Assembly: GCF_028858705.1 (NCBI RefSeq)
Contig: NC_072878.1
Location: 4,179,923 to 4,243,922, forward strand
Direction: 5' to 3'
DNA: 64,000 nucleotides
DNA from: Grus americana
Taxonomy: Eukaryota
Below are positions 39,701 through 42,700 of the stretch, piece by piece. The position numbers are program-made. Position 1 is the first letter of the stretch, and each line of letters starts with the position of its first letter.

Positions 39701-42700
39701 CTTTATCAAAAAGTTTACTCTCGGTCAGCTCTTGCGGCCTAGGACTAACTCCTTTAGCATCTGGTGCTAAGTGAGGTTATTAATCCTAATAACTGCAAGC
39801 TGTCATGGAGCAACTCTGAGAGAGCAGACAACATCTGGGGGCATCTTCTTGGAGGTTGTTGGGAAATTCCTTTTGCCAACTGAAATGTCAGCAGATGCCA
39901 GAATTTGGGGCAAATGAACCTTTTGCTACTCCTTATGTTCAGGGCTTCATTACCCATAACAGTAACTTGGAAAGACAAACGCCATAGCCTCAAACATACA
40001 CCCCACACACATCTTGCTTGTTCTTTCCCCAACTTTTATTGCTGAGAACAATGTCATATGGCGTAGGATATCCCTTTGGTCCTTTGGGGTCACCTGTCCT
40101 GGCTGTGTTCCCTCCCAACTTCTTGCCCATCCTCAGCATAGCTACTGGTGGGCAGCGTGAGAAACAGAGAAGGCCTCAATGCTGTGTGTTTTGGGTTTGT
40201 GTGGCAAGGTTTTGGTAGCAGGGGCGCTACAGGGGTGACTTCTGCAAGAAGTTGCTAGGTGCATCCTCTACATCTGATAAAGCCAACGCCAGCTGTCTCC
40301 AAGATGGACCCACTGCTAGCCAATGCCGAGCCAATCAGCAATGATGGTAGCACCTCTGGGATAACATATTTAAGAAGGAAAAAGAAAATAGTGGCAGCTT
40401 TTGCAGCCAGAGAGAGGAGTGAGAAGATGTAAGAAACTCTGCAGACACCAAGGTGAATATATGTGTGGTGGGCTGACCCTGGCTGGAGGCCAGATGCCCA
40501 CCAGAGCCGCTCTCTCACTCCCCTCATTCACTAAACAGGGGAGAAAAGGCATAATGAAATGCTTGTAGGTCGAGATAAGGACAGGGAGAGATCACTCACT
40601 AATTATCGTCATGAGCAAAACAGACCAAACTTAGAGAGGGAATTCATCTAATTTATTACTAGGCAAAACAGAGTAGAGGAATGAGAAAACAAAATCAAAT
40701 CTTAAAACACCTCCCCCCACCCCTCCCATCTTCCCGGGCTCAACTTCACTCCCGGCTTCAACCTTCCCCCCCTCAGCGGCACAGGGGGACGGGGAGTGGG
40801 GGTTACGGTCAGTTCATCTCACGGTGTTTCTGCCGCTTCTTCCTCCTCAGGGGGAGGACTCCTCTCATCGTTCCCATGCTCCAGCATGGAGTCCCTCTCA
40901 CTGGGTGCAGACCTTCAGGAGCAAACTGCTCCAGTGTGGGGTCCCCCACGGGGTCACAAGTCCTGCCAGCAAACCTGCCCTGGCGTGGGCTCCCCTCTTC
41001 ATGGGTCCAATTGTCCGGCCAGGAGCTTGCTCCAGCGTGGGCTTCCCACGGGCCGCAGCCTCCTTCAGGTGCCTCCACCTGCTCGGGCATGGGGTCCTCC
41101 ATGGGCTGCAGGTGGAATCTCTACACCCCCTCATCCTTCCTCCATGGGCTGCAGGGGGACAGCCTGCCTCACCATGGTCTTCACCATGGGCTGCAGGGGG
41201 ATCTCTGCTCTGGTGTCTGGAGCACCTCCTGCCCCTCCTTCTGCACTGGCCTTGGTGTCTGAAAAGTTTCTTAAGTCTTCTCCCTCCTCTCTGCGGCTGC
41301 AAAAGCTCTCTGTTTTTTTCCTTCTTAAATATGTTATCACAGAGGCGCTGATTGCCTTGGCCAGCAGCAGGTCTGTCTTGGAGCCGGCTGGCATTGGCTC
41401 TATCAGACACAGGGGAAGCTTCTGGCAGCTTCTCACAGAACCCACCCCTGTAGACCCTCACCGCTACCAAAACCTTGCCACGCAAACCCAACACATTCCA
41501 CCCCTCGCCTCTGTGAATCACATATTTAAGAATTATTAAAATATACATTCAACACAAAAACTTCACACACACTAATCACATCAACAAGAAAAAAGAAAAA
41601 GAATTCCCCCCACCAGAATCAAAGCAACACTATCACAACACGAAACAAGACTGGACGGTACACATAGAATCCACCTCTCGTCCCTTCACCAATATTTTGC
41701 TCTCAAGCTAAGTTCAGTCAATGTTTTGCCCGTTACCTCCTCCAGTTACTATCCTTATCTCGATTTTCTCAAGCCCCACGTTGGGCGCCAAAAAGGACTG
41801 TGGTGGGTTGAGCCTGGCTGGGGGCCAGGTGCCCACCAGAGCCACTCTATCACTCCCCTCTTCAGTAAGGCAGGGAGGGGAGAAAGGAGGATGGAAAAAA
41901 AAAAAACCAACCCCAAACTCGTGGGTCAAGACAAAGGCAGTTTAATGTAGCTAAAGCAAAAAGCCGCGCGCAGAAGCAAAGCAAAAAGCAAAAGATTATT
42001 CTCTACTTCCCATCAGCAGGCGATGTCCAGCCACTTCCTGGGAAGTAGGGCTTCAGTAAGCGTACTCCTTACTGCGGAAGACAAACATTGTAAATGGAAT
42101 ATCCCTTTGGTCAGTTTGGGTCAGCTGTCCTAGCTGTGTCCCCTCCCAAGATCTTGCCTACCCCCAGTGTGCTGCTGGGGAAAAAGAAATGTTGGAGAGA
42201 CGGCCTTGATGTGTGCTGGCACTGCTCAGTCGTAGCCAAAACACTGGTGTGTTATCAACAGTTTGCTAGCTACGAATACACAGCACAGCACCATGAGGGC
42301 TGCTGTGGGGAGACTTAACTCCATCTCAGCCAGACCCAATACAACTTTTATTTAGGACTGAGTCTAAGACAAAAATGCTTATCCCACTTAACTTTTGTGG
42401 TTTGATGTGGGGCATGAAAGAGATTTGCTGTTTTCTTAGGAGTAGCATGAACTTTAGTTTAGCTGTCCAGGCTTAAATCAAAGGGGGCTGCAGAGGAATG
42501 GAGAGAATACCAAGGTTTCTTGAAAAGCACGATGGGCAAGACAGGTGTGAGGAAATCTCTCTCCTGGTGCCAGAAGCGTTACAGGCTTAATACTTCATGG
42601 GCAGAAAGCAGGATTTAAAGAAAAGGATCTGTAGCTTCTGCTTTTAGGAACCATTTTTTTTTTTCCACTCCCTTTGCCACTTTCTCATTAACTGTTTAAC

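What the first reader, a model, noticed from the sequence alone, without database searches (positions are those of the whole stretch)
40184..42343. Gutted provirus remnant retaining an exact tRNA-Lys1,2 primer-binding site and a polypurine tract, next to an inverted LTR fragment
An 18/18 match to the tRNA-Lys(CTT) 3' end (GCCCCACGTTGGGCGCCA on the + strand, which is the PBS on the minus strand) lies 8 nt from an LTR terminus. A purine-rich tract lies directly next to the other LTR. This defines a minus-sense LTR-PBS-(~250 bp)-PPT-LTR element with almost all internal genes deleted. The two LTRs differ two-fold in length. No clean target-site duplication was found. An inverted 270-bp LTR fragment is fused head-to-head at 40453/40464, which suggests recombination or rearrangement between copies. 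The result gives this abundant LTR family a sense orientation and a primer. tRNA-Lys1,2 priming is typical of betaretrovirus-like (ERVK) and some other lineages.
Basis: seen in the sequence. Interest (0 to 1): 0.55.

Follow-up and report, generated by a model that had tools for sequence, protein, structure and literature searches.

The report
Hybrid mini-retroelement in a crane genome
This is one copy of a short, gene-less LTR retrotransposon family of cranes that primes with tRNA-Lys and belongs to the ERV-L/foamy-like class rather than the betaretrovirus-like class; it is an ordinary kind of genomic parasite, though this copy has mismatched LTRs and sits exactly where the sequence stops matching a related crane genome.

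Summary
An exact 18/18 tRNA-Lys1,2 primer-binding site (41773-41790, minus sense) lies 8 nt inside an LTR end. A 17-nt polypurine tract (41496-41512) abuts the other LTR. There is no target-site duplication, and an inverted ~270-bp LTR piece lies at 40187-40456.

- The ~300-bp interior is not a local deletion. Two complete elements in Grus japonensis (LTR, 7-8 nt spacer, PBS-Lys, the same interior at 91-92% identity, the same PPT, LTR) have their own 5-bp duplications and 99.6-99.9% identical LTRs. This is a recently active, non-autonomous mini-element family.
- The two window LTRs are different families (A, 1,032 bp; B, 545 bp) that share only ~70-86 terminal nt. The copy is a hybrid.
- LTR B's outer end (42343/42344) is exactly where orthology to the Grus NTAQ1 intron begins. 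Grus has an empty site there. The hybrid therefore marks a rearrangement or an assembly join.
- The lineage is class III (ERV-L/foamy-like), not ERVK. Its duplications are 5 bp, its termini are TGT...ACA, and the RT of a linked relative is closest to foamy-virus RT.

The inverted piece is an older, independent copy. Ordinary biology; modest interest.

The parts
39940..40186 (-). Fragment of a B-like LTR, 5'-truncated in its own sense. It is cut where the next piece begins.
   Evidence: Matches window 14983-15221 and 42099-42167, and B-like LTRs in Grus loci.
40187..40456 (+). Older, independent LTR A fragment (LTR positions 1 to ~261). It has a precise TGT start at 40187 and is truncated at its inner end.
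   Evidence: 76% identical to the adjacent LTR A and 79-82% to other copies. It shares a 12-nt insertion with the 12477 subfamily.
40457..40463 (.). 5-9 nt filler of unknown origin between the two LTR pieces.
   Evidence: Aligns to no LTR consensus.
40464..41495 (-). LTR A (1,032 bp), the 3' LTR of the element. Sense sequence runs TGTGTTGGG...CCCACCACA. CCAAT lies at ~99 and TATTTAA at ~165.
   Evidence: Full-length match to window copies 12477-13605 and 59432-60556 and to Grus LTRs at 91-93%.
40652..40657 (-). AATAAA polyadenylation signal, 188 nt before the U5 end.
   Evidence: Conserved in all four window copies. No AATAAA or ATTAAA occurs on the + strand of the LTR.
41496..41512 (-). Polypurine tract AGAGGCGAGGGGTGGAA abutting the LTR start.
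   Evidence: Identical in both Grus elements.
41513..41772 (-). Non-coding interior (~260 nt) with no retroviral ORF.
   Evidence: 91-92% identical to the interiors of the Grus L016 and L024 elements. No retroviral motifs were found.
41773..41790 (-). Primer-binding site TGGCGCCCAACGTGGGGC (tRNA-Lys1,2), an 18/18 match.
41791..41798 (-). 8-nt spacer GTCCTTTT between U5 and the PBS. It is a conserved trait of the lineage.
   Evidence: GTCTTTT or GTCTTTTT in the Grus mini elements, GTCCTTTTT in the Grus ERV, GTCCTTTA in L026.
41799..42343 (-). LTR B (545 bp), sitting in the 5' LTR position. It is a different LTR family with the same termini (TGTATTGGG...CCCACCACA) and an ATTAAA at 41941-41946.
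   Evidence: Collinear over B 1-541 with solo LTR L023 8647-9268. It shares only ~70-86 nt with LTR A.
42343..42344 (.). Breakpoint of orthology with the Grus japonensis NTAQ1 intron. Grus has an empty site here.
   Evidence: L022 12809-20471 matches window 42343-50010 at 97.5%. Nothing to the left matches.
42722..42875 (+). NTAQ1 (WDYHV1) exon, given as context. The element lies 379 bp upstream of it.
   Evidence: tblastn and protein search.

Best explanation
The window holds one copy of a non-autonomous LTR retrotransposon, a 'mini-ERV', of a class III (ERV-L/foamy-like) avian lineage. A canonical member is about 2.4 kb and has this order: a ~1.05-kb LTR, a 7-9 nt spacer, an 18-nt PBS complementary to tRNA-Lys1,2, ~260 nt of non-coding leader/interior, a 17-nt PPT, and a second LTR.

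Inferred mechanism. The element is transcribed from the 5' LTR and polyadenylated at the AATAAA in the 3' LTR. Its RNA is packaged by Gag-Pol from a coding relative. Reverse transcription is primed by tRNA-Lys1,2 at the PBS and by the PPT for the plus strand. Integration makes 5-bp duplications.

Shown directly: the anatomy, its conservation in independent copies that carry their own TSDs, very recent activity in cranes, and the sense orientation.

This window copy is not a clean insertion. Its 5' LTR belongs to family B and its 3' LTR to family A, and it has no TSD. The outer edge of LTR B is an integration junction into the NTAQ1 intron that Grus lacks, while everything to the left is non-orthologous. 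The most likely history is inferred, not shown. An element with B-type LTRs inserted here after the split from Grus japonensis. It then recombined through the shared interior or LTR terminus with an A-type element elsewhere. That exchange joined two loci, by deletion, inversion or duplication, and removed the 5' NTAQ1 exons from this neighbourhood.

The adjacent inverted LTR piece and the B-like fragment are older, unrelated insertions.
For: Exact PBS, PPT and spacer are; the PBS identity is.

Two complete Grus elements share the interior.
- L016 15895-18287: interior 91% identical, PBS 16/18, LTRs 99.6% identical, TSD ATTCC.
- L024 9902-12305: interior 92% identical, PBS 18/18, LTRs 99.9% identical, TSD CAGCC.

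5-bp TSDs of LTR A solos:
- Window copies: GCAAG and GGACC.
- Grus copies: CACAT, GCCTG and ATGTG/ATGTT.
- Two Grus-specific insertions, CCTTG and CTGTT, with empty sites in the window.

The TSD and terminus rules for ERV-L come from PMC6523648 and PMC8278194.

Link to a coding ERV: in L025 a short LTR, GTCCTTTTT and a PBS-Lys are followed by ~2.1 kb of sense-strand ORFs and a PR/RT ORF (RVT_1, 3.5e-23). An LTR A with a PBS in the same locus carries interior homologous to that ERV (66% over 799 bp and 81% over 341 bp). PDB scores for the RT are foamy PR-RT 91 bits, MLV 79, HERV-K 62, HIV 57.

Hybrid and breakpoint: the A and B LTRs are alignable only at their ends. B is a bona fide LTR family. 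Orthology starts at 42343/42344, and Grus has an empty site plus upstream NTAQ1 exons that the window lacks. The interior is collinear with the Grus interiors end to end, so the A/B junction lies in homologous sequence. Divergence from Grus is uneven: 18/180 in the 5' part against 5/166 in the 3' part, Fisher p=0.01.
Against: - No B-interior-B element was found, so the B-type parent is hypothetical. Only B-type solo LTRs and fragments were seen in about 200 kb of sampled bird DNA.
- The reciprocal recombination product and the expected left junction (...ATTGTGAACTTT next to an LTR end) are not in the window.
- The left 42 kb is repeat-rich and contains a 99.6% inverted duplication. An assembly join at the repeat could produce the same picture.
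- The coding partner was seen only as a degraded relative with a different (C-type) LTR, and only its 5' 3.5 kb. Trans-mobilisation is inferred.
- The class assignment of the RT rests on PDB bit-score ranking, not a phylogeny.
- The uneven divergence along the interior could reflect constraint near the PPT rather than a crossover.
Confidence: 0.75

Rival explanations
1. This is a one-off 'gutted' betaretrovirus-like (ERVK) provirus whose gag-pol-env were deleted at this locus.
For: The PBS-Lys1,2 is used by betaretroviruses and HERV-K-like elements. The LTR-PBS-PPT-LTR order is as in a provirus.
Against: The same 300-bp interior occurs in two independent Grus insertions, each with its own TSD and 99.6-99.9% identical LTRs. 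TSDs are 5 bp, not 6. The linked RT scores 91 bits to foamy RT against 62 to HERV-K RT. Foamy viruses share this PBS.
Confidence: 0.04
2. The mismatched LTR pair and the synteny break are an assembly chimera. Two true loci, a B-type element in the NTAQ1 intron and an A-type element elsewhere, were joined by the assembler through their shared interior or LTR end.
For: The junction lies inside repeated sequence. The left 42 kb is repeat-dense and carries a 3.27-kb, 99.6% inverted duplication of a kind that assemblers can create. No reciprocal product or left flank is present in the window.
Against: The shared homology is short (about 300 bp of interior, or about 80 bp of LTR end) for a misjoin in a gap-free 64-kb stretch containing no N. 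This cannot be tested further without reads.
Confidence: 0.2
3. The region is not an element at all. Two unrelated solo LTRs happen to flank a piece of DNA carrying a chance tRNA-like 18-mer, or a tRNA-Lys pseudogene or SINE tail.
For: The LTRs are different families and there is no TSD.
Against: An exact 18-mer is expected about 2e-6 times in 128 kb, and 0.03 times even with 3 mismatches allowed. The PBS, spacer, interior and PPT are collinear with complete Grus elements. No tRNA structure was detected, and similarity to the tRNA ends after 19 nt.
Confidence: 0.01

Closest known systems
ERV-L / ERV3 (class III) LTR retrotransposons, including avian ERV3 families curated by TSD length
   Same: TGT...ACA termini. 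5-bp TSDs. RT of the linked relative is closest to spumavirus RT. LTR promoter layout (CCAAT, then TATA, then a distant AATAAA) resembles XtERV-S (PMC8278194).
   Different: Classical ERV-L (HERV-L, MuERV-L) primes with tRNA-Leu (from my own knowledge) and XtERV-S with tRNA-Ser. This lineage uses tRNA-Lys1,2 and a conserved 7-9 nt U5-PBS spacer. The window element has no coding capacity.
MaLR (mammalian apparent LTR retrotransposons)
   Same: Non-autonomous, class III-related LTR elements with a non-coding interior, presumably mobilised by ERV-L proteins (PMC6466679).
   Different: MaLRs are mammalian and mostly ancient, with a longer interior. Here the interior is only ~300 bp between ~1-kb LTRs, the host is a bird, and the copies are very young.
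ETn/MusD, VL30/MLV and IAP 1-delta-1 (non-autonomous/autonomous ERV pairs of mouse)
   Same: Gene-less or deleted derivatives keep the LTRs, PBS and PPT and are copied in trans. They can out-number and out-jump their coding partners (PMC6466679).
   Different: Those pairs are class I or II, and the non-autonomous partners are several kb long.
TRIM (terminal-repeat retrotransposons in miniature) of plants and some animals
   Same: The same minimal plan: LTR, PBS, a few hundred nt, PPT, LTR, with no ORF.
   Different: TRIM LTRs are roughly 100-250 bp and the whole element is under about 1 kb (from my own knowledge). Here the LTRs are 1 kb, and the relationship is to retroviruses, not to Ty1/Ty3 groups.
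Foamy viruses (Spumaretrovirinae)
   Same: The same PBS, TGGCGCCCAACGTGGGGC/G (PMC4261875), and the closest solved RT.
   Different: Foamy viruses make 4-bp TSDs (from my own knowledge) and have a 2-nt spacer. No foamy-specific genes were seen here.

Membership tests
LTR retrotransposon / ERV (structural definition) | LTRs with TG...CA termini | tested here: met
   LTR A runs TGTGTTGGG...CCCACCACA and LTR B runs TGTATTGGG...CCCACCACA in minus sense.
LTR retrotransposon / ERV (structural definition) | PBS complementary to a tRNA 3' end just inside the 5' LTR, and a PPT just before the 3' LTR | tested here: met
   18/18 PBS-Lys1,2 located 8 nt from the LTR. A 17-nt PPT abuts the other LTR.
LTR retrotransposon / ERV (structural definition) | Two homologous LTRs and a flanking target-site duplication | tested here: not met
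   The window copy has LTR B against LTR A and flanks AAAGT/CATAT. The feature is met in the Grus copies L016 (ATTCC) and L024 (CAGCC), so the family qualifies and this copy is rearranged.
Non-autonomous LTR element family (as opposed to a locally deleted provirus) | The same short non-coding interior in independent insertions, each with its own TSD | tested here: met
   L016 and L024 have interiors 91-92% identical to the window, different flanks and different TSDs.
Non-autonomous LTR element family (as opposed to a locally deleted provirus) | Mobilisation in trans by a coding relative | not testable with these tools
   Only inferred. The inference rests on the shared spacer, PBS, leader start and U5 with a Grus ERV carrying PR/RT.
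ERVK / betaretrovirus-like (class II) | 6-bp target-site duplication | tested here: not met
   Nine insertions show 5-bp TSDs. The rule is from PMC6523648.
ERVK / betaretrovirus-like (class II) | pol/RT grouping with beta- or alpharetroviruses | tested here: not met
   The RT of the linked Grus ERV scores 62 bits to HERV-K RT 7sr6, against 91 to foamy virus and 79 to MLV. This is a bit-score ranking only, with no tree.
ERVK / betaretrovirus-like (class II) | PBS for tRNA-Lys | tested here: met
   Met, but not diagnostic. Foamy viruses use the same PBS.
ERV-L / ERV3 (class III) | 5-bp TSD and TGT...ACA termini | tested here: met
   The rule is from PMC8278194 and PMC6523648.
ERV-L / ERV3 (class III) | RT closest to spumaviruses / ERV-L | tested here: met
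   The best PDB matches are foamy PR-RT structures 7kse, 7ksf and 7o0h (8e-25). The link from LTR A to that ERV goes through homologous interior.
ERV-L / ERV3 (class III) | ERV-L gene plan (gag-pro-pol, no env, dUTPase after IN) in the autonomous member | not tested
   Only the 5' 3.5 kb of the Grus ERV was within the fetched locus L025.
tRNA gene, pseudogene or tRNA-derived SINE | Cloverleaf, or tRNA similarity beyond the 3' 18 nt | tested here: not met
   ARAGORN found 0 genes and Rfam found no tRNA. Identity ends after 19 nt.

The most novel reading that the evidence does not exclude
The hybrid B-interior-A element is a real footprint of ectopic recombination between two members of a currently or very recently active mini-ERV family. 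That event restructured the NTAQ1 locus in this crane lineage, separating or deleting the 5' exons. This would make it a datable, species-specific case of LTR-element-driven gene disruption and structural change in a bird genome.
Probability: 0.3. Interest if true: 0.45.

Novelty: new member of a known kind. Interest (0 to 1): 0.3.

Why it matters
The finding fixes the orientation, primer and class of an abundant crane LTR family, which solo LTRs alone cannot give. It shows that the family includes a 2.4-kb gene-less form that was still jumping very recently: LTR pairs are 99.6-99.9% identical, and there are insertions that differ between two cranes about 2% apart. Bird genomes are usually described as poor in active transposons, so such elements are useful as phylogenetic and population markers and as possible drivers of rearrangement.

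For annotation, it warns against two errors. One is calling a lineage ERVK from a Lys PBS alone. The other is trusting the many 'hypothetical protein' gene models in bird genomes that are stitched from these LTRs.

Tried and rejected
- Scanning IMG/VR viral contigs for LTR end plus PBS, and for the LTR end alone, gave nothing or chance phage matches.
- The single metagenome scan for CCCACCNCA, a gap, then PBS-Lys returned nine contigs of an unrelated LTR retrotransposon with a 9-nt spacer (L001-L009).
- Retroviral motif scans of the window and of six bird loci found no gag, pro or pol.
- Pfam on the ten longest window ORFs found only CR1-type RT.
- An apparent 'short LTR A variant', suggested by protein P0213, turned out to be a spliced gene-model artefact.
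- Pairs of LTR A 2.1-2.3 kb apart in L018 and L021 were independent solo LTRs, each with its own TSD, not proviruses.
- A sag-like ORF in the LTR was considered because both strands of LTR A have 170-250-aa ORFs. It was rejected because copies differ by indels that are not multiples of three (6, 10, 47 and 91 nt) and the region is GC-rich and internally repetitive.
- The 9 nt at 40455-40463 vaguely resemble the Grus left flank (ATATAT), but a search for the expected junction found nothing.
- Balearica NTAQ1 could not be retrieved as an outgroup.
- PDB searches with the gag-region ORFs of the Grus ERV gave nothing.
- The NTAQ1 exon comparison gave only two window-specific substitutions, too few to call a pseudogene.
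Full report
**What is in the sequence**

The window is avian. It carries CR1 reverse-transcriptase fragments and three exons of NTAQ1/WDYHV1 on the + strand, at 42722-42875, 43196-43321 and 51389-51490.

The 18-mer GCCCCACGTTGGGCGCCA occurs once, at 41773-41790. Shuffled sequence gives 0.03 matches even with three mismatches allowed. Its reverse complement, TGGCGCCCAACGTGGGGC, is the published tRNA-Lys1,2 primer-binding site (PMC1084362; PMC8775094; PMC4261875). 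ARAGORN and Rfam find no tRNA, and identity to the tRNA ends after 19 nt. It is therefore a PBS, not a tRNA gene or SINE tail.

Read on the minus strand, the order is as follows.

| Feature | Window coordinates |
|---|---|
| LTR B (545 bp) | 42343 to 41799 |
| Spacer GTCCTTTT | 41798 to 41791 |
| PBS | 41790 to 41773 |
| Non-coding interior, ~260 nt | 41772 to 41513 |
| PPT AGAGGCGAGGGGTGGAA | 41512 to 41496 |
| LTR A (1,032 bp) | 41495 to 40464 |

No retroviral coding motif exists in the window.

**The two LTRs are different families**

A self-comparison finds LTR A four more times in the window:
- 12477-13605;
- 59432-60556;
- about 6560-7611;
- the inverted piece at 40187-40454.

LTR B aligns to LTR A only over its last ~70-86 nt (89% over 71 nt) and its first ~10 nt. 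B is a bona fide LTR family. A solo copy in bird DNA from a metagenome is collinear with B positions 1-541 and has a 5-bp duplication, GACTC/GAATC (L023). The A, B and a shorter 'C-type' LTR share a homologous U5 and the same termini, so they belong to one lineage.

In minus sense, LTR A has CCAAT, TATTTAA and a conserved AATAAA 188 nt before its end. LTR B has ATTAAA at the homologous place. The + strand has no such signal.

**The short interior is a family feature**

Translating an LTR A ORF and searching proteins returned many bird 'hypothetical proteins', mostly from Grus japonensis. Fetching DNA around them gave two complete elements with the same interior.

| Grus element | Spacer | PBS | Interior identity to window | LTR pair identity | TSD |
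|---|---|---|---|---|---|
| L016 15895-18287 | GTCTTTT | TGGCGCCCAGTGTGGGGC (16/18) | 91% | 99.6% | ATTCC |
| L024 9902-12305 | GTCTTTTT | perfect (18/18) | 92% | 99.9% | CAGCC |

Both elements carry the identical PPT and have LTR A at both ends. Their flanks differ from each other and from the window.

The ~2.4-kb gene-less form therefore transposes as such and did so very recently. The PBS is on the expected side in complete members, and it is present in the other copies. An older decayed copy (GTCCTTTA, then TGGTGCCCAGCATGGGGC) occurs in bird DNA in three metagenomes.

**Which retroviral class**

Every LTR A insertion with readable flanks has a 5-bp duplication:
- GCAAG and GGACC in the window;
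- ATTCC and CAGCC for the two mini elements;
- CACAT, GCCTG and ATGTG/ATGTT for Grus solo LTRs;
- CCTTG and CTGTT for two Grus-specific insertions whose empty sites are in the window.

Avian TE curators assign 4, 6 and 5 bp to ERV1, ERVK and ERVL respectively (PMC6523648). TGT...ACA ends and 5-bp TSDs are described as class III/ERV-L traits (PMC8278194).

In Grus locus L025, a short C-type LTR is followed by GTCCTTTTT and then TGGCGCCCAACATGGGGC. After about 2.1 kb of sense-strand ORFs comes a PR-end/RT ORF (RVT_1 3.5e-23; LPQGW and YIDD motifs). In the same locus an LTR A (85% subfamily) with a PBS carries interior homologous to that ERV (66% over 799 bp and 81% over 341 bp).

Against all PDB sequences the RT scores as follows.

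| PDB reference | Bits |
|---|---|
| Foamy-virus PR-RT (7kse, 7ksf, 7o0h) | 91 (E=8e-25) |
| MLV RT | 79 |
| FIV RT and HERV-K RT | 62 |
| HIV RT | 57 |

Foamy viruses use this same PBS. The lineage is therefore class III (ERV-L/foamy-like), not betaretrovirus-like. This rests on a linked relative and on score ranking, not on a phylogeny of a full-length partner.

**Why this copy is odd**

It has mismatched LTRs and no TSD. The Grus NTAQ1 locus (L022) is orthologous to the window at 97.5-98% identity, but only from window 42343/42344 rightwards. That point is exactly the outer end of LTR B.

Grus reads ...catatattgtga|acttttatttagg at the site, which is an empty site. It has the upstream NTAQ1 exons 1.7-2.4 kb to the left. 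The window lacks those exons in its entire 42 kb upstream. The expected left junction is not in the window.

LTR B's edge is therefore a true integration junction, made after the split from Grus japonensis. The other end of that insertion has been exchanged for an A-type LTR with foreign flanks.

The interior is collinear with the Grus interiors from end to end, so the exchange lies within homologous sequence. Divergence from Grus is 18/180 in the 5' part of the interior and 5/166 in the 3' part (p=0.01). That is compatible with a crossover, but it could also reflect constraint near the PPT.

I infer non-allelic recombination between a B-type and an A-type element. An assembly join through the repeat is a serious rival: the left 42 kb is repeat-dense and contains a 3.27-kb, 99.6% inverted duplication. 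No B-interior-B parent was found.

Reverse transcription cannot create unequal LTRs, because both LTRs of a new provirus are copied from the same U3-R-U5 (established retrovirology).

**The inverted fragment**

Positions 40187 to about 40456 are the first ~261-270 nt of an LTR A in + sense. The fragment has a precise TGT start that interrupts an older B-like LTR fragment (39940-40186). It is only 76% identical to the adjacent LTR A and carries a 12-nt insertion typical of the 12477 subfamily. It is an older independent insertion, not a local copy. With the sense now known, the two pieces converge rather than lie head-to-head.

A Grus LTR A (L021) has its first ~250 nt inverted in place, with a break near the same LTR position. 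I have no explanation for that coincidence.

**Verdict**

The thing itself is a new member of a known kind, a non-autonomous class III LTR element comparable in principle to MaLR, ETn or TRIM (PMC6466679). This copy has the added curiosity of being a recombinant at a synteny breakpoint. Interest is modest.

Noticed in passing
window 25905-29174 and 30947-34217: A 3.27-kb inverted duplication at 99.6% identity with a 1.77-kb spacer, in GC-rich sequence. Its ORFs have no Pfam match. It could be a real palindrome or an assembly artefact.
   Followed up: no
window 42722-42875, 43196-43321, 51389-51490: These are the 3' exons of NTAQ1 (WDYHV1). The 5' exons (aa 1-78) are absent from the 42 kb upstream, although Grus has them within 2.4 kb. 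There are two window-specific substitutions at otherwise invariant residues ([15 protein letters not shown]), so this may be a truncated or duplicated gene copy.
   Followed up: partly
L022 20472-21556 and 24455-25497 (Grus japonensis NTAQ1 introns); empty sites at window ~50006-50010 and ~52900: Two LTR A solo insertions are present in Grus but absent from the window (TSDs CCTTG and CTGTT). The family was therefore active after these two cranes, about 2% diverged, separated.
   Followed up: yes
L021 9242-10419 (Grus japonensis): An LTR A has its first ~250 nt inverted in place, next to a duplicated 36-nt LTR start. The break is near the same LTR position (~250-261) where the window fragment 40187-40456 is truncated.
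   Followed up: partly
L024, L025 and proteins P0003-P0078, P0213, P0232: Many annotated Grus japonensis 'proteins' (named hypothetical protein, triadin, interleukin-15, SDR39U1 and others) are gene models stitched from LTR A, the PBS/leader and other TE ORFs. They are annotation artefacts.
   Followed up: partly
window 41791-41798; L016, L024, L025, L026: The U5-PBS spacer is unusually long (7-9 nt, GTC(C)TTTT(T)) and is conserved across LTR families of this lineage. Integrase or end-processing would therefore have to remove more than the usual 2 nt.
   Followed up: partly
L025 8650-10627 (Grus japonensis): A gammaretrovirus-like ERV (Gag_p30 ORF and an MLV-like RT) is interrupted by a solo LTR A at 10628-11674. 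It is unrelated to the element studied.
   Followed up: no
window 14755-15378: A 'C-type' LTR (TGTCATGGTTTTACCCCAGCCGGCAGC...CAGCACA) has a 5-bp duplication, CTATC/CTACC. It is the same LTR type that flanks the RT-bearing ERV in Grus L025.
   Followed up: partly
L001-L009 (JGI metagenome contigs): These contigs hold an unrelated LTR retrotransposon family from an unknown eukaryote. It also has an exact PBS-Lys1,2, preceded by a 9-nt spacer (CCGCTTCAA) after ...GACCCACCGCA.
   Followed up: no
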